A DNA stretch of 35,435 bases from a virus (lineage: Duplodnaviria; Caudoviricetes), in IMG/VR virus record IMGVR_UViG_3300030606_000030, positions 1 to 35,435 of that record; one strand, written 5' to 3'. Below, one piece after another: positions 936 to 10,100 of the stretch (positions are counted from its first letter, which is position 1; each line of letters opens with the position of its first letter). Under the pieces are notes generated by a model. It was not told the DNA's origin and did no database searches. It worked only from the letters and a program-made list of their open reading frames with translations. Both the position numbers and the translations under genes were made by a program.

Positions 936-1447
936 CTGCGCCCAGCCTGCTCTCGCTCGACCTCGCCACTTCGGTCGGCTGGGCGCGGCTGCGCGACGGC
1001 CGGGTCGACTACGGCACCTACCGGCTGCCGGCGACCGGGCCCGACGTCGGGCGATTCCTCGCCGCCTACGAGGACTGGCTGCGAGTCGCGATGCTGGACG
1101 GGGTCGATGTTTGCGTATTCGAAGCCCCATTCGTGTCCGGGAAGACCAGCCAGGATACCGCGAGGAAGCTGCTCTGCCTCGCCGGGGTGACCGAGCTCGT
1201 GTGCCACCGGCGCGAGATCCGGTGCTTCGAGACCAACATCAAGACCGTGACGAAACACTTCGTCGGTCGCTGCCCGCCGCAACGCGCGGAGAAGAAGGCG
1301 GCGACCTTGAGGGCTTGCAGGCAGCGCGGTTGGCAACCGAAGAACGACGACGAGGCCGATGCACTCGCCGTGCTCGACTACGCCGTCCACTGGCTGCGGC
1401 TCCCGGTGAAGCTGCCGGTGGGCGGACTGTTCGGAGATGCGGCGTGA
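932..1447 (+). CDS. RuvC-like Holliday junction resolvase
   Basis: GTG start in GTGA overlap; motifs LLSLDLATSVGWA, VFEAPF, NDDEADALAV match RuvC acidic catalytic residues. Confidence 0.88.
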   Translation: MTAPSLLSLDLATSVGWARLRDGRVDYGTYRLPATGPDVGRFLAAYEDWLRVAMLDGVDVCVFEAPFVSGKTSQDTARKLLCLAGVTELVCHRREIRCFETNIKTVTKHFVGRCPPQRAEKKAATLRACRQRGWQPKNDDEADALAVLDYAVHWLRLPVKLPVGGLFGDAA

Positions 1448-2859
1448 TGCCTCCGCTCACAATCGATCTGACGGACGGACAACTCGCCATTGTGCGCCAC
1501 TTCGGCAACGCCATGGGCATGAGCGATGCCGAGGCCGCCAAGCACTTCATGTTGCGCGACGCGCTCGACTGGTACGCCAAGGTGATGGTGCGCGAGGCGC
1601 GTGAGGGCCAGCCATCAGCACCACTCCCGGCGGCCGAGAAACCGCCGCCCGTCGTACCTGTGCAGGAACCTGCCCACCGACAGCCGTTGCGAACCGAGGG
1701 CGCCCATGCCGCTTGGACGAACGAGGAATATGCCAAGCTTCGCCAGTGGCGCGCCGAAGGAGTGTCGGCCAGGCAGATGGCGGACCGGCTCGGCCGAAGC
1801 GTCGCCGCGGTCAACACCCGTATTTCCATGCTCAAGCTGCCGCGAGGCAAGCGGGCAAAAAAAAATGGCGTGGCCACACCCCATCGCCGGTTTACCAATC
1901 ACGCGCCCATCGATCCTGAGCGGACGCACGGACTCGCGGATGATCACCCAGCGGTCATTGACGGCCGCACCCTCTTTCCGAGCACCGTCGCGGACCCGGC
2001 CGCTCAAGCGAACGTGCTGATCTCCGGGGCCAACTCGCCTAAGCTGGGCGACTGCGTTGTCAAAGGCCCCTGGGCCGGCCTGCCGATCTACAGCCTGACA
2101 CTCGAGGAGCGCGCCACCTGTCCGCGTTCCTGTCACGTCTGGCGCGAGTGTTATGGGAACGGTATGCCCATGGCGCGGCGCCATCGGCACGGCCCGGAAC
2201 TCATCGCCGCCATCGATACCAATCTTCGAAAGCTGCTGGACGTGCACGAGCAGGGCATCGTCGTCCGGCTGCACCAGCTCGGCGACTTCTACGACAACCC
2301 CTATGTGGCCGCCTGGTGGATGTGGCTCAATGAGCTCCGCGCCCTGCGGGTCTTCGGCTATACCGCGCATCCGAAGAAATCCAAGATCGGATTGGCCATC
2401 GGCGAACTCAACCACTCCTTCCCCGACCGCTGCGCCATCCGCTTCTCCGCTGCCGAGCCCCAGCCCATGGGGGCGACGACGATCCGGCGGAAGGATCGGG
2501 GCCGCGTCGGCGAGGGCATCGTGTGCCCGGCGCAGACCGACGACACGGCCTGCTGCGGCAGTTGCGGGCTGTGCTGGCACCCGGAAGCCCGCGACAAGAC
2601 CATCGTCTTCATGCTGCACGGGCGGAAGTCCGCCGCCGAGGCGAAGCGGAATCCGGCCAAGGCGGGTAAGCCGTGGCCAGCGGAAAAACGAACCGGGCGA
2701 CCGGCCCTCACGGAGTCCGACAACGTGCGCGAGCACGGCGGCGTGTTCAGCCGCCCCATGCAGCGCCGGTGCTTGGAGTGTGACCAAATCTTCAAGACGC
2801 GATCGGTCGATCAGACCGTCTGCGGTCACTGCGGTACCGGCGCGAGTGCATCGCCATGA
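1447..2859 (+). CDS. Multidomain protein: GcrA/Myb-like HTH + Gp88-like Cys-rich domain + C-terminal zinc ribbon
   Basis: ATG in TGATG overlap; WTNEEYAKLRQWRAEGVSARQMADRLGRS (HTH); NSPKLG..TCPRSCHVWRECY..VRLHQLGDFY..CPAQT..CCGSCGLCW (Gp88-like); CLEC..CGHC. Confidence 0.75.
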   Translation: MPPLTIDLTDGQLAIVRHFGNAMGMSDAEAAKHFMLRDALDWYAKVMVREAREGQPSAPLPAAEKPPPVVPVQEPAHRQPLRTEGAHAAWTNEEYAKLRQWRAEGVSARQMADRLGRSVAAVNTRISMLKLPRGKRAKKNGVATPHRRFTNHAPIDPERTHGLADDHPAVIDGRTLFPSTVADPAAQANVLISGANSPKLGDCVVKGPWAGLPIYSLTLEERATCPRSCHVWRECYGNGMPMARRHRHGPELIAAIDTNLRKLLDVHEQGIVVRLHQLGDFYDNPYVAAWWMWLNELRALRVFGYTAHPKKSKIGLAIGELNHSFPDRCAIRFSAAEPQPMGATTIRRKDRGRVGEGIVCPAQTDDTACCGSCGLCWHPEARDKTIVFMLHGRKSAAEAKRNPAKAGKPWPAEKRTGRPALTESDNVREHGGVFSRPMQRRCLECDQIFKTRSVDQTVCGHCGTGASASP

Positions 2860-2938
2860 CCGCGCCCGCGCCTTCCATCTCATTGCCCACAGCGGCAGGG
2901 CATGGATGCCGCCAAGTAAGGAGAGCTGATTCTAGCGC

Positions 2939-3127
2939 ATGAGTCGGGATTGCAACATCGGGGCCGAATGCTGGATGCGGCTGGACGAGGCGATGCTGGC
3001 CGAGCTGCGTGCGATCTGGTGGCGCGCCCGGCGAAACGGCGTCGTTCTGCCGGCCCAACGGGGCATCATAATCGTGGATGGCGACAAGGCAGACGAGGGG
3101 ATCGCGACGTGGACGCCCGCGGCCTGA
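2939..3127 (+). CDS. Small hypothetical protein
   Basis: 62-aa ORF filling the gap before the primase; AGGAG upstream but at long spacing. Confidence 0.35.
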   Translation: MSRDCNIGAECWMRLDEAMLAELRAIWWRARRNGVVLPAQRGIIIVDGDKADEGIATWTPAA

Positions 3128-4953
3128 CGCGCGCCTTGCATGGTAATTGGCACGGCTCTTACGGGACCGCCAAGTGCCCGGCCCATGACGACCGCTCGCC
3201 CAGCCTCTCGATCAGCGACGGAGACAATGGCGGGCTTCTGGTCCACTGCCACGCCGGCTGCTCGCAGGATCAGGTCATCGGCGCGCTCTCCGATCGGGGG
3301 CTGTGGAACGGTCACACGACGGAGCGGGGCCTAAAGCCCGTCGCCCACGCGAAATTCGGCAAGCCCAATGAGATCTACGTCTATACCGAGGATTTCGAGG
3401 TGTGGCGTTGGGAGGCGATCGCGGATCGCCCAAAGGTAATCCGCCCGCTCTACCGGCTGGATGGCGAGTGGCAGTGGAAGCAAAGCATGCCGCCGCCTCG
3501 GCCGCTCTATCGCTTGGCTTCGTTGAAGGCGGACACGTTTCGTCCAGTTTTGCTTGTCGAGGGAGAGAAAACGGCCGAGACGGCTCAATTATTGCTTTCA
3601 CAGTTCACGGTCATGACCTGGCCCGGCGGCGCGAAAGCTATCAAGCAGATCGATTGGCACCCTCTCGGCCACCGGAAAGTGATCTGCTGGCCGGATGCGG
3701 ACGACGAAGGCAAGCGGAGCATGCGGGAGATCGCGGCGAAGCTGACGCATCTCGGGGCTGATGTGCGGATCGTCGACGTGCCGTCGAGTTTGCCGCGTAA
3801 ATGGGACCTGGCCGACAATATCCCGGACGGGCTGGACATCGAGGAGATGATCGCGGCCGCACCCCAGTACACGGCCGAGAAGGCCACTCTGGGTAGCGGG
3901 ATCGCGGTCGTGCGCCCCGAGACGCTGGCGGGAGAGCCTCCGGAAAGACCCTGGCTGGTGGCCGATTGGATTCCTCTCCGGGCCGTCACGATGCTCTCCG
4001 GCGACGGCGGACTCGGCAAGAGCCTGCTCGACATGCAGCTGCAGACCTGTTGCGCGGAGGGGCGCGCCTGGCTCGGTCAATTCGCAAAACGGTGTGTCAG
4101 CGTCGGCGTCTACTGCGAAGACGAAGTCGACGAGCTCCGGCGTCGCCAAATGGCGATCAACAAGGCATTGGGCATCGACACGCCGCCAGGAATGCACTGG
4201 GTAACCCGTGTCGGCTCCGACAACGCCTTGGTCACGTTCGACCGCTTCACCGGAGAAATGGAGCCTACCGGGCTATTTGAGGACCTGCATCGTCTGACGC
4301 AGGATCTCGGGGCCCGCCTGTTGATCCTTGACGCGCTCCACGACTTTTATCCCGGGAACGAGAACGATCGCGTGATGGCGCGACGGTTCATCAATCTCCT
4401 GACCCAGCTCGCCTGCGACATGGACGGCGCTATCGTCCTGAACGCGCATCCGTCCCTGAGCGGCCGCGCCAGCGGCACCGGCGAGTCCGGCAGCACCGCC
4501 TGGAGCAACGCCGTCCGCTCGCGGCTCTATTTCCACCGGCCGCTTGTCGACGGACTGGAGAGCAACGACCGCGACGCGCGGATTTTGAGCAACCGCAAGG
4601 CCAACTATTCGGCCAGTGGGAACACGATCCAATGCCGCTATCGCGATGGCATGTTCGAGCCGAAAGCGACTACGCCGACGAGCGCGGGAGCCGTGGAGCG
4701 CATATTCCTGGACGCCGTGGAGCGCCTTACGAAGCAAGGCGTCAACATGAGCTTCAGTTCGCACGCATCGAATTATGCCGTGCGAAACATCATGACCGCC
4801 GGGCTGAACGATGGAGCAACCAGTCAGGATCTTGCAAAAGCGCTTCGGAACCTCGAGACACGAGGGATCATCGGGACAGAAAAATATGGGAAGCCGAGCA
4901 ACCAGCACACGCGGCTGGCCATCGTTCGAAGGGATCTTTTCAATGCGGCGTAG
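3109..4953 (+). CDS. Primase-helicase fusion (zinc finger + Toprim + RepA/AAA_25 SF4 helicase)
   Basis: GAGGGG RBS and GTG at 3109; CPAHDDRSPSL..HCHAGC zinc finger; VEGEKTA..WPDADDEG Toprim; Walker A GDGGLGKS; Walker B LLILDAL; SGSTAWSNAVRSR. Confidence 0.92.
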   Translation: MDARGLTRALHGNWHGSYGTAKCPAHDDRSPSLSISDGDNGGLLVHCHAGCSQDQVIGALSDRGLWNGHTTERGLKPVAHAKFGKPNEIYVYTEDFEVWRWEAIADRPKVIRPLYRLDGEWQWKQSMPPPRPLYRLASLKADTFRPVLLVEGEKTAETAQLLLSQFTVMTWPGGAKAIKQIDWHPLGHRKVICWPDADDEGKRSMREIAAKLTHLGADVRIVDVPSSLPRKWDLADNIPDGLDIEEMIAAAPQYTAEKATLGSGIAVVRPETLAGEPPERPWLVADWIPLRAVTMLSGDGGLGKSLLDMQLQTCCAEGRAWLGQFAKRCVSVGVYCEDEVDELRRRQMAINKALGIDTPPGMHWVTRVGSDNALVTFDRFTGEMEPTGLFEDLHRLTQDLGARLLILDALHDFYPGNENDRVMARRFINLLTQLACDMDGAIVLNAHPSLSGRASGTGESGSTAWSNAVRSRLYFHRPLVDGLESNDRDARILSNRKANYSASGNTIQCRYRDGMFEPKATTPTSAGAVERIFLDAVERLTKQGVNMSFSSHASNYAVRNIMTAGLNDGATSQDLAKALRNLETRGIIGTEKYGKPSNQHTRLAIVRRDLFNAA

Positions 4954-4980
4954 GATATCCTGTCGGTTGAAAGAGCGAAC

Positions 4981-5115
4981 GTCCCGGTTGGTCCCGGTTC
5001 CCTGTAAGTCATTGAAATTGGCCCGTCCTGGTTATTTCGTCCTGGTTCGGTCCAGGTCCGTCCTGGTTATCCATAACACTTTGATATCATTCGCAGGTCT
5101 AGGTTCGTCCAGGTT
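4981..5115. repeat. Putative replication origin: eight GTCYNGGTY iteron-like repeats with IHF-like sites
   Basis: Copies at 4981, 4991, 5025, 5039, 5050, 5060, 5097, 5107; TAACACTTTGATA (5074-5086) fits IHF consensus YAANNNNTTGATW; TAAGTCATTGAAA (5005-5017) is one mismatch; directly downstream of the primase-helicase. Confidence 0.7.
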
Positions 5116-5388
5116 GCGTCCGGCTAGGTCCTACTACTACGTAGATAGAGGAGGTGGTGGTAGTGGTGGTCGGTGTAGGTCGAGACGACAGCGCAGCGCA
5201 GCGGGTGTCCCGGTCCTAGCGCTCCGCCTGGAGGGCTCGCTTGGACCCGGACCCCTTGCGCTCTCGATCCATCATCGAACGGCTTTCCTCTCACGTCCTG
5301 GATTCAACGTGCCAGTATCCGCGCCCGCGCGCGAGCGGCCCCACCCGCACCTTCCCGAAGGCGAAATTTTCAGACCGGAGAAAACACC

Positions 5389-5655
5389 ATGAGCAAACCA
5401 GCAACCAAACCGCCGTCGAGATCGTCGAAGCCCCGGCCGCCGCCCGCGCCGCCTAAGCACATGAGCCGTCCTACGGTGCGGCAGGTAACGGAGCTGCAAG
5501 GCTTGTTGCGCGAGGCCAATGTGGACAGGCTTCGAGCAATCCTGGCACGTGACCGCGCCGAGACTCGGCTGCTGCGCATTGCTCTGCTGTGCCTCGCCGC
5601 GGGGCTCGCCGTCGGCGGGGTGGCCATGTTCGGGATCCTTGCAGTGGGAGGGTGA
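5389..5655 (+). CDS. Small protein with C-terminal transmembrane helix
   Basis: GGAG RBS; hydrophobic C-terminus IALLCLAAGLAVGGVAMFGILAV. Confidence 0.7.
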   Translation: MSKPATKPPSRSSKPRPPPAPPKHMSRPTVRQVTELQGLLREANVDRLRAILARDRAETRLLRIALLCLAAGLAVGGVAMFGILAVGG

Positions 5656-5685
5656 ACACCATGCCGCTGCCCCTGATCAGCGGCC

Positions 5686-5819
5686 GGCGCGAGGCCAGCC
5701 GTGGCGTGATAGCCAGCTACATCCTGCCTCGCGCCATCTACACCATGCCGCCGTCCCAAACCGGCGGCCGCCACGGGACCATGCCACAGGTGACAACCAG
5801 CACCTTGCTGTCCCGTGGC
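5686..5819 (+). ncRNA. TIGR-like guide units 1-2 (stem-flanked dual-spacer units)
   Basis: GGCGCGAGG-CCA-GCCGTGGCG-TGATAGCCA-GCTACATCC-TG-CCTCGCGCC (5686-5735) and GCCACGGGA-CCA-TGCCACAGG-TGACAACCA-GCACCTTGC-TG-TCCCGTGGC (5770-5819); both have perfect 9-bp stems. Confidence 0.85.
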
Positions 5820-5870
5820 CCTCACAACCTCCGGCCCGGGTGTTTGGGATCGGGCTAGGAGACTAAGACC

Positions 5871-6605
5871 ATGACAATGAAGGATAAACTCGCAAGCGCC
5901 GGCGCGCTGCCGCCCGACCGGAGGCTCTACCTGCTGGCGGTGAAATGCCTACAGGGTGCGGACGGCGTGCCCACGCGCGCGGTGGAGGGTTTCCTTGACG
6001 GCCTGCGCGCGGAGCCGGACCTGCTGTTGGCATTGCTCGCCAAGGACGAAATCGGACAACCGGCGTGGCGCTATCTGAACGCGCGTGCTCAAGAGATGGC
6101 CGGGAAGCCGGCCCGCGGGGGCCAGTCAGCATCTGACAGCCATTTGAGCGGTGCCCCCGCGACCAAACCCCGCCCGGGCGGCCATCCTGGCACTGAAAAC
6201 CATATTGGCGGTGCCGCTCCGGGCGGTGGCGCGAACGGGGCGGGCCACCTTGACGCTGACATCCAAACTACCGGTGCCCGTCCCGTTTCGGTTCGCGCTC
6301 ACAATCGCAGGACACCCGAGGGTCATGCCGCGCTCACCAAGAGCTTCTGGGATCAGAAGCTCGGCCTGTTCGACATCACGCTCAAGACGGCCACGCGGCA
6401 GGATTTCGTCAACCTCAAGCGCAAGGGCATGGTGGTCGACCATATCGCGGATCGCGCGCTGACCGAGATCGATTGGCCGGACGATGTGACGCCGCTGCCC
6501 GAGGTGGCGACACAGGCGCAGGTGGAGGCGATCTTGGCGAGCGGGCGCAAGCTTCTCGGATCGCTCGGTATCGCGAAGGTCAAGGAGGTAGGCCATGCGG
6601 CGTGA
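5871..6605 (+). CDS. Hypothetical protein immediately upstream of Tas; central linker encoded by three guide units
   Basis: AGGAG RBS; helical N- and C-terminal parts joined by a Gly/Pro-rich linker with GQxxxDxH/GHxxxExH/GHxxxDxQ repeats; overlaps the Tas start. Confidence 0.8.
   Translation: MTMKDKLASAGALPPDRRLYLLAVKCLQGADGVPTRAVEGFLDGLRAEPDLLLALLAKDEIGQPAWRYLNARAQEMAGKPARGGQSASDSHLSGAPATKPRPGGHPGTENHIGGAAPGGGANGAGHLDADIQTTGARPVSVRAHNRRTPEGHAALTKSFWDQKLGLFDITLKTATRQDFVNLKRKGMVVDHIADRALTEIDWPDDVTPLPEVATQAQVEAILASGRKLLGSLGIAKVKEVGHAA
6114..6288 (+). ncRNA. TIGR-like guide units 3-5 (inside ORF 5871-6605)
   Basis: CCA-GTCAGCATC-TGACAGCCA-TTTGAGCGG-TG (CCA at 6122); CCA-TCCTGGCAC-TGAAAACCA-TATTGGCGG-TG (6182); CCA-CCTTGACGC-TGACATCCA-AACTACCGG-TG (6245); each closed by its own GC-rich stem. 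Confidence 0.85.
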
Positions 6606-7482
6606 TGGAAACCCGGAGGACGACGGAGGCCAACCAGATCATGACATCCAGACACGAACTGCCTCCGCGTTGGGAGAGGGGGCGGCCCATGGGCATCATG
6701 AAAGCCAAAGTAGTAGTGTCCGCTCCCTCTCCGAAGTCTGCGATCTGTTGGCCAATGCCCAGGCTAAGCGGCGCTTCTGCATCGGCCAGCAGTCGCGTCT
6801 CAACAATGCCCTCGGTGCGCTCGCACGCTGGCAGCTTGGCTGGAAGGTCAGCCTGCCGGAAGCGGAGCGGGAGCGCATTCGCAAGGACGCCGCTAAGCTG
6901 GTCAAGGCGGTCCAGGATGGCGAGCTGCCCGCCGGCATGGAGGATGCGGCGGAAACGCTGCTGCCCTACGTGCAGGACACCGCCATCGGGCGCACGCCCT
7001 TTGATCTGCGCCGCAAGGAGATCGAGAAGGAGATGCGGAAGCTGGTGCGGGATCTGCCGGCCTACGAGTTCGCAGAGAGTGTGAAGGGATTCGGGGATCT
7101 CGCCTTGGCGGTGATCGTGGGCGAGGCCGGGAACCTCGCCAACTATCCGCACTGGCAGCACTTGTGGAAACGGCTCGGCTGGGCGCCGCGCGAGGAATAC
7201 CCGAAGGGCGAGAAGTCCGAGGGCCGCAAGGTGCCGCGCCGGGTGAAGGGCGAGCTATACGGCACCGTCATCGAGCCGCTCATGAAGCTCAACGGTGACG
7301 GCAAATACAAAGCGCTCTACGACCGGCGCAAGGCGGACTACCTGGCGCGCTTCGAGGCCGACGGCAGCAAGACGCCCAAGCTGCACGCCCACAAGCTCGC
7401 CATGCGGGTGATGCTCAAAGAGCTGCTTAAGGATCTTTGGAAGGCCTGGAATGGCCAACTCGACCGTGACGACCAGACGTGA
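6595..7482 (+). CDS. tasA: TasA-like RNA-guided Nop/IS110-domain protein with no nuclease domain
   Basis: AAGGAGG RBS; RRFCIGQQSRLNNAL coiled coil; FAESVKGFGDLALAVIVGEAGNLANYPHWQHLWKRLGWAP (IS110 Transposase_20/Nop-like); C-terminal YKALYDRRK..HAHKLAMRVMLKELLKDLWKAW; no N-terminal DEDD RuvC or HNH; flanked by dual-spacer units. Confidence 0.85.
   Translation: MRRDGNPEDDGGQPDHDIQTRTASALGEGAAHGHHESQSSSVRSLSEVCDLLANAQAKRRFCIGQQSRLNNALGALARWQLGWKVSLPEAERERIRKDAAKLVKAVQDGELPAGMEDAAETLLPYVQDTAIGRTPFDLRRKEIEKEMRKLVRDLPAYEFAESVKGFGDLALAVIVGEAGNLANYPHWQHLWKRLGWAPREEYPKGEKSEGRKVPRRVKGELYGTVIEPLMKLNGDGKYKALYDRRKADYLARFEADGSKTPKLHAHKLAMRVMLKELLKDLWKAWNGQLDRDDQT
6624..6732 (+). ncRNA. TIGR-like guide units 6-7 (inside the 5' end of the Tas ORF)
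   Basis: CGGAGG-CCA-ACCAGATCA-TGACATCCA-GACACGAAC-TG-CCTCCG; GGAGAGGGGGCGGC-CCA-TGGGCATCA-TGAAAGCCA-AAGTAGTAG-TG-TCCGCTCCCTCTCC. Confidence 0.85.
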
Positions 7483-7785
7483 TGTGCCAACCAGGCTTTC
7501 CCTCGGGGCGGGCCAGCATAGCTGTGATTGCCAGAAATGGGCCGCCTGCCCCGCAGTTTCGGAGGACCAGAACATGCCTGACAACCAGCTTGTGCGTGTC
7601 CTCTATCGGCGGGAGGCCGTCCTCCTCATGACAACCAAATCAACTATGCCTCCCGCCGTTACCTTCGCCGTGGAGAGGGCTAGGCACCAACTGCTTGCCA
7701 GAGAAGGTTTGCCCAGACCGGGGCGCGCGCGGGCGGAGGGCCAGATAGAGGCTGATATCCAGTCCTGGCCTGCCCTCCGCCCCGC
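7439..7785 (+). ncRNA. TIGR-like array downstream of Tas, units 8-13
   Basis: Spacer pairs ACTCGACCG/GACGTGATG (CCA at 7455), GCATAGCTG/GAAATGGGC (7513), GAACATGCC/GCTTGTGCG (7567), TCCTCCTCA/AATCAACTA (7617, CCG variant), GGCACCAAC/GAGAAGGTT (7680, degenerate), GATAGAGGC/GTCCTGGCC (7741); loop TGANNNCCA; stems flank each unit. Confidence 0.88.
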
Positions 7786-7814
7786 AACCCTCTGCAACTG
7801 ATTCGGAGACCTGG

Positions 7815-8384
7815 ATGCCCAGCCGCGCCGCCCGCCGCCGCCGGTTCCGCAAGGCGAAGGCCAAGGAGATGACCCTGCCGGAGGCCGCCAACGACGAGGT
7901 CCCGCCCCCGCCCGAGCGGTTCGGCCACGGCGACGCGATCGAACGGGCGCGCGCCTCCGACGCCATGCCGTGGGGCGACCGCCCGCCGCTCCGGGTCGCG
8001 ACCGAGAACATGCTCGACAGGTATCTCCGCCAGGGCGCGATCAAGCAGCCTCAGCACGACGCCGGCATGCGGCTCTACCGCGAATGGCTCGGCACCGGTG
8101 CGAACCCCAAGGTGGTGGGCGGGTTCCTCATCCGCATCGAGGCGCCGCCAAGTTTCAGCGCGCACCAGGCCGAGATGCGCCTGCTGGTCAACCGCGCGGC
8201 CGCGGCAGTCGGTCCGGTCGCCTACGGGGTCCTGTTCCACGTCTGCTGCTGCAACCTCTCGGCGCGGGACTGGACGCTGGCGCGGGGTTACCGGGTGAAC
8301 GTCGCCAAATCGGCCGGCATCGTGATCCTCAAGGAGGCGCTGCACAGCCTCGAAAAGCACTACCGCGAAAGGGGAGGGCGATGA
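7815..8384 (+). CDS. DUF6456-like phage late transcription regulator
   Basis: GGAG RBS; ENMLDRYLRQGAIKQPQHDAGMRLYREW and C-terminal LKEALHSLEKHY; position between replication and packaging modules. Confidence 0.75.
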   Translation: MPSRAARRRRFRKAKAKEMTLPEAANDEVPPPPERFGHGDAIERARASDAMPWGDRPPLRVATENMLDRYLRQGAIKQPQHDAGMRLYREWLGTGANPKVVGGFLIRIEAPPSFSAHQAEMRLLVNRAAAAVGPVAYGVLFHVCCCNLSARDWTLARGYRVNVAKSAGIVILKEALHSLEKHYRERGGR

Positions 8385-8698
8385 GCCATAATGCCAAACC
8401 TGTAACCATCAGGGGGATAACCTATCCATCTGGTCGTGCTGCTGCATTGGCGCTCGGCTTATGCCCAGACACAGTTACTAAGGCAGCGAAACGCGGAACA
8501 TTGGATTTTGTGGGACTCGGGCCGCGTGGCTCGAAAGGTAGAAGTCACAGAGGTAAACCGATAATTATTCAAGGTGTACGATATCCATCACAACGAATTG
8601 CAGCGGAGGTATTGGGGGTTCACCAAGCCACGGTTTCCCAAGCAAAACGCCAGGGATGGCTTGATCGTCTCGGAACGAAACAGTCAAAGCTCAAATAA
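8381..8698 (+). CDS. Small DNA-binding protein with two NUMOD1/HTH-like repeats
   Basis: ATGA overlap; KPVTIRGITYPSGRAAALALGL and KPIIIQGVRYPSQRIAAEVLGV; visibly lower GC than neighbours. Confidence 0.8.
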   Translation: MSHNAKPVTIRGITYPSGRAAALALGLCPDTVTKAAKRGTLDFVGLGPRGSKGRSHRGKPIIIQGVRYPSQRIAAEVLGVHQATVSQAKRQGWLDRLGTKQSKLK

Positions 8699-8706
8699 TT
8701 TTCCGC

Positions 8707-8737
8707 TTGACAGGGGGCCCCCGGAAGTCGTTAGGCT
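8707..8737 (+). promoter_or_regulatory. Putative late promoter
   Basis: Perfect -35 TTGACA at 8707-8712 after an AT-rich tract; candidate -10 TAGGCT at 8732-8737 (19-bp spacing, suboptimal). Confidence 0.45.
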
Positions 8738-8768
8738 TGTCAGCGTTCCACAATTGGGTCAGCACCAT

Positions 8769-8798
8769 GCCCCGCCGGCATCGCCCGCGCGGGGCTTT
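8769..8798 (+). terminator. Terminator-like hairpin in the late leader
   Basis: GCCCCGC...GCGGGGC followed by TTT (short U tract). Confidence 0.4.
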
Positions 8799-8816
8799 CC
8801 GTTGCCGGGAGGGCAG

Positions 8817-10100
8817 ATGCAGCCTCGCGATCTCACCGTCCGCCACATCGCCCTTGCCGAGCTTAAGCCCTACGCCCACAACGCGCGGACTCACTCCGAG
8901 ACGCAGGTGGCGCAGATCGCCGCCTCCATGGGCGAATTCGGCTGGACCAATCCGGTGCTGGTGGACGGCGCCAAGGGTATCATCGCAGGCCACGGTCGGG
9001 TGCTGGCCGCCGAGCAGCTTGGTCTGGATACCGTCCCTTGCATCGAGCTGGGCGATCTCAGCGAGGCGCAGGCGCGCGCCTACATCATCGCCGACAATAA
9101 GCTCGCCCTCAATGCCGGGTGGGACGAGCCGTTGCTGGGCCGGGAGCTGCTTGCCCTCGACGCGCTCGGCTTCGACTGCACGCTCGCTGGCTTCTCCGGT
9201 GACGAGCTGGACGGGCTATTCGCTCGGGCACAGAGCGCCGGTGAAGGCCTCACCGACGAGGATGCCGTACCCAGCGTCCAGGAGCAGGTCGTAAGCCAGG
9301 CGAGCGATGTGTGGCTGTGTGGGCGGCACCGGGTGCGCTGCGGGGATTCCACCAACGCCGAGGACGTGGCGGCGCTGTTGGCCGACGTCGAGCCGCATCT
9401 CATGGTGACGGACCCGCCGTACGGGGTGAACTATACACCGGGCTGGCGTAACGAGGCCGTCACACAATTCGCGCCAAGCATCTCAGCGCGAGTCGAAAAC
9501 GATGACCGGGTGGATTGGTCAGAAGCATGGGCTTTATTCCCGGGGGCCGTGGTCTATGTCTGGCATGCAGCGACTCAAGCGATTCAGGTCGCGGCGTCCC
9601 TCGGTGTGGCGGGATTTGAATGCCGTTCACAAATCATCTGGGCTAAGCAAAACCATGTGATTGGCCGAGGCCATTATCATCCACAACATGAGCCTTGTTG
9701 GTATGCTGTTCGCAAGGGCAAGCAGGGTCATTGGACTGGCGGGCGGACGCAGACGACGCTTTGGCGAATTGACAATCTCAACCCTGTTGGTTCGGCGAAC
9801 GAACGCTATGACCGCAAGGTTGGCCACGGCACCCAGAAACCCGTCGAGTGCATGCGCCGGCCCATCGTGAACAACTCCAACCCCGGCCAGGCGGTCTACG
9901 ACCCCTTCCTCGGCTCCGGCACCACCATGATCGCCGCCGAGAAGGAGGCGCGCATCTGCTACGGCATGGAGATCACACCGCAGTATGTCGACGTGGCGGT
10001 GCGCCGGTGGCAACAATTCACCGGCGAGGAGGCCACGCTCGAAGACAATGGCCGCACCTTCGCTGAGGTCGCTGCGGCGCGCCTGAAAGAAGCCGCTTGA
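8817..10100 (+). CDS. ParB-N domain + N6/N4 DNA methyltransferase (beta class)
   Basis: GGAGG RBS; LKPYAHNARTH..FGWTNPVLVD..IIAGHGR (ParB-like); DPPY; HGTQKPVE; DPFLGSGTT. Confidence 0.93.
   Translation: MQPRDLTVRHIALAELKPYAHNARTHSETQVAQIAASMGEFGWTNPVLVDGAKGIIAGHGRVLAAEQLGLDTVPCIELGDLSEAQARAYIIADNKLALNAGWDEPLLGRELLALDALGFDCTLAGFSGDELDGLFARAQSAGEGLTDEDAVPSVQEQVVSQASDVWLCGRHRVRCGDSTNAEDVAALLADVEPHLMVTDPPYGVNYTPGWRNEAVTQFAPSISARVENDDRVDWSEAWALFPGAVVYVWHAATQAIQVAASLGVAGFECRSQIIWAKQNHVIGRGHYHPQHEPCWYAVRKGKQGHWTGGRTQTTLWRIDNLNPVGSANERYDRKVGHGTQKPVECMRRPIVNNSNPGQAVYDPFLGSGTTMIAAEKEARICYGMEITPQYVDVAVRRWQQFTGEEATLEDNGRTFAEVAAARLKEAA

What the first reader, a model, noticed from the sequence alone, without database searches (positions are those of the whole stretch)
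6114..6288. Guide units embedded in-frame inside the upstream protein-coding gene (dual-coding array)
Seen: units 3-5 lie in the middle of ORF 5871-6605 at 60- and 63-nt spacing, both multiples of 3. They translate as GGQSASDSHLSGAP, GGHPGTENHIGGAA and AGHLDADIQTTGAR. All six intragenic units (3-8) share one phase (first C of CCA at codon position 3), which keeps the invariant TGA box out of frame, while the intergenic units 9-13 are in mixed phases. Inferred: selection keeps both protein and guide, so the mRNA doubles as the pre-guide array and guide processing would cut the message, giving built-in autoregulation. I am not aware of this layout being described.
Basis: partly seen in the sequence, partly recalled or inferred. 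Interest (0 to 1): 0.88.

Follow-up and report, generated by a model that had tools for sequence, protein, structure and literature searches.

The report
Guide RNAs inside TasA's partner gene
Three guide-RNA-like hairpins of a phage TIGR-TasA system are written in frame into the predicted floppy middle of a conserved, uncharacterised gene next to tasA, so the same DNA likely encodes both a protein and exchangeable guides, extending a layout already described for tasA itself.

Summary
Observation confirmed. Three stem-loop TIGR units (core starts 6122, 6182, 6245) lie in frame in ORF 5871-6605, directly upstream of a nuclease-less tas gene (6595-7482). All six intragenic units share one codon phase. 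The ORF is a real gene of an unannotated family that sits right before tas in 46-54 of 80 related loci. Its two helical domains are under purifying selection (dN/dS 0.07-0.24), are never split by a stop (0 of 42), and flank a low-confidence linker made of the units. The units are constrained as RNA: wobble bases forming box D are kept (22/31 and 28/31 vs 4.6 and 5.8 expected) and stems pair. Spacers are largely replaced between phages whose domains are 92-97% identical. Dual coding is thus well supported by sequence evolution. Expression, processing and targets were not shown. Autoregulation is untested and weakened by tas's own strong ribosome-binding site and by the internal-promoter alternative. 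In-frame tigRNAs inside tas were described in a September 2026 preprint; embedding in a conserved non-tas partner was not found in my searches. New variant of a known system.

The parts
5871..6605 (+). Partner (companion) gene, 244 aa: helical N-domain (about aa 3-76), unit-encoded linker (about aa 77-148), helical C-domain (about aa 149-231)
   Evidence: 61 relatives by phmmer; AF2 model pLDDT about 87-97 in the domains, about 50 in the linker; no Pfam, PHROG or NCBIfam family
5857..5861 (+). Shine-Dalgarno-like AGGAG before the partner gene start
   Evidence: sequence
6110..6163 (+). Unit 3, stem-loop tigRNA-like unit (core 6122-6153) in frame in the linker
6170..6226 (+). Unit 4 (core 6182-6213) in frame in the linker
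6232..6290 (+). Unit 5 (core 6245-6276) in frame in the linker
6582..6589 (+). Strong Shine-Dalgarno (AAGGAGGT) of tas inside the partner gene's last codons; tas ATG overlaps the partner's end by 11 nt
   Evidence: sequence
6595..7482 (+). tasA-type gene, 295 aa, Nop-domain RNA-guided DNA-binding protein with no nuclease domain detected
   Evidence: family profile hits PDB 9mty (E 6.5e-18) and TasH chains (E 4.9e-5); NCBIfam TIGR_Tas_endo E 1.4e-19, below cut-off
5695..5810 (+). Units 1-2, upstream of the partner gene (cores 5695-5726, 5779-5810)
6630..6718 (+). Units 6-7, in frame in the tas N-terminal tail (cores 6630-6661, 6687-6718)
7455..7486 (+). Unit 8, in frame at the tas 3' end; tas stop lies in its spacer B
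7513..7772 (+). Units 9-13, downstream array (7513, 7567, 7617, 7680 degenerate, 7741)

Best explanation
This is a stem-loop TIGR-TasA locus of a phage in which three guide-like units form, in frame, the predicted disordered linker of a conserved two-domain partner gene directly upstream of tasA, so the stretch likely serves both as protein code and as guide RNA. Shown by sequence comparison: the partner's two domains are held by protein-level selection. The boxes and stems of the units are held by RNA-level selection. The spacers change freely as long as no stop appears. The single phase puts the fixed box bases on wobble positions and gives Gln/His and Asp/Glu, which a flexible linker tolerates. 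Inferred: partner gene, tasA and the 13 units are one transcript; a fraction of the messages is trimmed, probably by host RNases around TasA-protected hairpins, into tigRNAs. These would load into TasA dimers that bind 18-bp DNA targets and block transcription, as shown for other TasA proteins. Units colonised the linker and the tas tails because these are the only places in a compact operon that tolerate them. Any feedback on the partner's expression is a likely by-product, not a shown function.
For: Partner family directly upstream of tas, same strand: 46 of 80 tas loci with linker-free profiles built from outside proteins, 54 of 80 after one iteration. 4 of 4 new loci found through the partner have tas behind it. 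N- and C-domain in one ORF in 42 of 52 partner loci, split in 0, N-domain not detected in 10. dN/dS 0.07-0.24 in domains vs 0.66-2.0 in linker, 12 pairs. Peptide-defined units keep T at two wobble positions in 22/31 and 28/31 vs 4.6 and 5.8 expected. Flanks of peptide-defined units pair better than shuffled in 24 of 27. Stops in the coding phase: 0 of 32 embedded vs 11 of 76 outside units (p 0.03), no such depletion in another phase (7 of 32). At least one unit detected in the linker of 35 of 52 partners. Intragenic tigRNAs of BlTasA are processed and TasA represses transcription (preprint).
Against: No target found for any guide: none in the window, no exact match for units 3-5 in IMG/VR, no excess over mixed-pair controls for 223 guides in 0.97 Mb of related DNA. 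17 of 52 partners have no unit detected by my strict detectors, so the protein does not need them in every lineage. Linker length tracks unit count only weakly. The stop-avoidance test is partly circular. The CUU processing motif of the preprint is not evident at these stems.
Confidence: 0.65

Rival explanations
1. Selected feedback: the partner is a dedicated accessory of this TasA clade (guide maturation, spacer renewal or co-repression), and cutting guides out of its message is a built-in switch that lowers partner and TasA synthesis once TasA is present.
For: Near-obligate adjacency in both directions; tas ATG overlaps or abuts the partner's stop in 42 of 52; units sit at the same place in the partner across deep tas lineages and different loop classes; the preprint names auxiliary factors for stem-loop maturation as an open question.
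Against: tas has its own strong Shine-Dalgarno, so it need not depend on upstream translation. 21 of 73 non-redundant tas loci lack a detected partner (at least two of them hold divergent members). Other stem-loop loci are processed in E. coli, which suggests host enzymes suffice. No invariant catalytic-looking column in the partner family.
Confidence: 0.2
2. Guides 3-5 come from separate small transcripts (internal promoters) or from a minority of messages, so DNA is dual-coding but there is no coupling between translation and guide production.
For: The preprint states that intragenic tigRNAs could come from embedded promoters and that its data cannot tell.
Against: No sigma-70-like promoter on the + strand in 4900-8900 (weak test). 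Units abut each other with little room for promoters.
Confidence: 0.1
3. The embedded units are relics: they were captured into the linker once and now persist only as peptide, without giving guides.
For: Some relatives carry degenerate or no units in the linker. No targets found.
Against: Wobble-position box bases and stems are kept; spacers are replaced while stems between them stay nearly identical; units 3-5 have perfect boxes.
Confidence: 0.05

Closest known systems
Intragenic stem-loop tigRNAs within tas, e.g. Bifidobacterium longum BlTasA (Xu et al., bioRxiv 10.64898/2026.09.09.750476)
   Same: Stem-loop units in a coding sequence without breaking the frame, mapped to disordered regions; proposed link between guide maturation and translation; nuclease-less Tas. 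Units 6-8 here are exactly this case.
   Different: Units 3-5 lie in a separate, conserved non-tas gene. The text I read (abstract, Results parts 1 and 3 of 3, Discussion, Extended Data legends, keyword passages) mentions only the tas coding sequence. Figures and supplements were not seen.
Stem-loop TIGR-TasA (Faure et al. 2025, PMC12045711; Peromyscus gut PlTasA)
   Same: [quoted passage not shown]
   Different: There the subarrays are described as intergenic; no partner gene is described for the stem-loop clades in the passages read.
tasParB-tasA operons (Faure et al. 2025, fig. S14 per methods text)
   Same: A conserved gene operonised with tasA.
   Different: tasParB is ParB-like and goes with dual-repeat arrays lying upstream, downstream or between the genes. 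The partner here shows no ParB match by Pfam and carries stem-loop units inside its frame.

Membership tests
Stem-loop TIGR array | [quoted passage not shown] | tested here: met
   13 units CCA-N9-TG-N4-CCA-N9-TG, spacers all different
Stem-loop TIGR array | Variable palindromic stems instead of edge repeats | tested here: met
   9 of 9 units folded close a stem, z -1.6 to -5.3
Stem-loop TIGR array | Adjacent Nop-domain Tas gene | tested here: met
Stem-loop TIGR array | Units processed into small RNAs bound by Tas | not testable with these tools
   no RNA holder listed
TasA | Nop domain without RuvC or HNH | tested here: met
   295 aa; about 45 N-terminal residues are units; hits to 9mty and TasH cover only their C-terminal part; no nuclease family by Pfam or NCBIfam beyond the Tas and IS110 models
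TasA | RNA-guided DNA binding and repression | not testable with these tools
   no target found; function taken from preprint
Intragenic tigRNAs (Xu et al. 2026) | Units in frame in a disordered part of a coding sequence | tested here: met
Intragenic tigRNAs (Xu et al. 2026) | Host gene is tas itself | tested here: not met
   units 3-5 are in a separate ORF and frame; met for units 6-8
Intragenic tigRNAs (Xu et al. 2026) | CUU motif at the stem base | tested here: inconclusive
   not evident by eye in the flanks of the 13 units; true RNA ends unknown
Dual-repeat TIGR array | Uniform 36-nt units with conserved edge repeats | tested here: not met
   spacing 50-84 nt, variable stems
tasParB companion | ParB-like domain in the gene operonised with tasA | tested here: inconclusive
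   no ParB family by Pfam in 53 + 25 members; fold searches list no ParB but cannot exclude it

The most novel reading that the evidence does not exclude
The partner is an undescribed dedicated accessory of a large phage TasA clade, possibly the missing guide-maturation or spacer-renewal factor. Its own message is the guide precursor, so making guides switches the accessory off. Spacers are rewritten inside a live reading frame under a no-stop rule, which gives a natural record of how TIGR spacers are replaced in place.
Probability: 0.2. Interest if true: 0.82.

Novelty: new variant of a known kind. Interest (0 to 1): 0.55.

Why it matters
How TIGR arrays gain spacers and how stem-loop guides mature are stated open questions (preprint Discussion). 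This locus adds two handles. The first is a conserved, unannotated gene tied to tasA in most of this clade, the obvious candidate to delete. The second is sets of near-identical prophages in which spacers were replaced at fixed positions inside a coding sequence, which argues for replacement in place rather than addition at an array end. It also means annotation pipelines that look for arrays only between genes or in tas will miss the link to this gene.

Full report
Observation. A motif scan of the whole window finds 13 units of the form CCA-N9-TG-N4-CCA-N9-TG clustered on the + strand between 5695 and 7772. Units 3-5 (6122, 6182, 6245) lie inside ORF 5871-6605 at 60 and 63 nt spacing. Units 6-8 (6630, 6687, 7455) lie inside ORF 6595-7482. 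All six have the first C at codon position 3. The nine units folded each close a G+C-rich stem of different sequence.

The system. ORF 6595-7482 has 95 homologs besides itself. Their profile matches PDB 9mty (E 6.5e-18) and TasH chains over the C-terminal part only, and the protein matches NCBIfam TIGR_Tas_endo below cut-off. With two 9-nt spacers, box C/D motifs and variable stems, this is a stem-loop TIGR array with a nuclease-less TasA as defined by Faure et al. (PMC12045711; sections 6 and 9 and keyword passages read). The locus lies in a phage genome between a primase-helicase and the methylase-terminase-portal block.

The host ORF is a real gene. A library-wide search gives 61 proteins at E up to 0.001. 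They share an N-terminal helical part, a variable middle with repeated G-[QH]-x3-[DE]-x-[QH] peptides and a C-terminal part. AlphaFold2 models both domains with confidence and the middle (about aa 77-148, the units) without. I fetched 80 viral loci by tas similarity (the best 80 of 107). Profiles of the two domains, built without the linker and without those loci, find the family in 46 of 80, always the gene directly upstream of tas on the same strand. One iteration raises this to 54 of 80. After removing near-duplicates it is 47 of 68 tas-found loci, or 52 of 73 with the window and the partner-found loci. Searching with the partner gave six loci: the window's own record, one already held, and four new ones, all four with tas directly behind. 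Both domains are in one ORF in 42 of 52 and split in none; the tas ATG overlaps or abuts the partner's stop in 42 of 52. In two groups of four related phages, dN/dS is 0.07-0.24 in the domains and 0.66-2.0 in the linker (12 pairs).

The units are constrained as RNA. Defining units only by the peptide motif in 45 non-redundant partners gives 31 instances in 20 genes, including the window's three and several chance hits outside linkers. The wobble base before D/E is T in 22 (4.6 expected from codon usage) and the last wobble base is T in 28 (5.8 expected); the two box C bases are also enriched (25 vs 17.1; 28 vs 16.5). Flanks pair better than shuffled in 24 of 27. Strict DNA detectors (2 and 0 minus-strand false hits against 223 and 46 units) find one to three units in the linker of 35 of 52 partners, in at least two loop classes; 17 have none detected, some of them degenerate units by eye. 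In L001, L004, L008 and L009 the domains are 92-97% identical in DNA and the stems between units are nearly unchanged, yet the spacers of all three units are largely replaced, with a few still related, and the frame stays open with no indel.

Phase. The TGA box forbids one phase. tas uses both others (55 vs 23), whereas the partner's 4-nt-loop units are 32 of 32 in the phase seen here. I infer that this phase is favoured because it gives polar residues and puts fixed bases on wobble positions; shared ancestry contributes too. Longer-loop units start in other phases. Embedded units carry no stop in the coding phase (0 of 32 vs 11 of 76 outside; p 0.03, partly circular).

What is not shown. No RNA data exist for this DNA in the index. 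No guide target was found; the order spacer A then reverse complement of spacer B was inferred from the opposite-strand rule, and the other order was tested too. The partner's function is unknown from families or folds. I commit to the reading that it is co-transcribed with tasA and that its linker is a tolerated home for guides. A dedicated accessory role with feedback is the main rival. tas has its own strong ribosome-binding site, which weakens the idea that cutting the linker silences tas.

Prior art. Xu et al. (bioRxiv 10.64898/2026.09.09.750476; abstract, Results parts 1 and 3, Discussion, Extended Data legends and keyword passages read) report stem-loop arrays inside tas without frame disruption, small RNAs from the embedded BlTasA units, possible coupling to translation, and repression by TasA. 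They do not mention other host genes in that text. Faure et al. describe a ParB-like companion for dual-repeat TasA only. Guan et al. (10.64898/2026.08.11.744272; passages) and the yeast preprint (10.64898/2026.07.30.739390; passages) added nothing on this. Five literature searches found no non-tas host gene; figures and preprint supplements were not seen. Two earlier notes of this scan describe what looks like the same partner layout in other genomes; they are not independent evidence.

Verdict. Real dual-coding layout, supported by evolution on both levels. The principle is known for tas; the conserved partner gene carrying exchangeable guides is the new part. New variant of a known kind, interest 0.55.

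Noticed in passing
L109 (Rhizobium phage RHph_X2_25, MW960032.1) 1058-3170: A cultured phage has a tas relative with stem-loop-like units and an upstream 199-aa gene weakly similar to both partner domains (single-sequence E 5e-5 and 2e-4) but with no clear embedded unit; a tractable place to test the partner's function.
   Followed up: partly
L001 3385-3640, L004, L008, L009: Subclade with a longer loop that forms a mini-hairpin (9 nt between box D and box C); three linker units with spacers replaced between near-identical prophages, and one spacer pair related between different positions, hinting at unit copying.
   Followed up: partly
L038 2598-3833; L074 68-1090: Divergent partner-like genes missed by the profile, with 4 and 3 units in the usual phase.
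   Followed up: partly
window 7451-7801 and 5519-5866: Open frames of 116 and 115 codons run over the downstream and upstream arrays; probably chance in G+C-rich DNA, no homolog search made.
   Followed up: no
window 4980-5135: Short degenerate repeats (GTCC-A/T-GGTT-like) just after the primase-helicase gene, possibly a replication origin.
   Followed up: no
window 1111-2859: Long ORF with weak GcrA-like HTH, GP88 and DUF7227 matches; may be more than one gene.
   Followed up: no
   Followed up: partly
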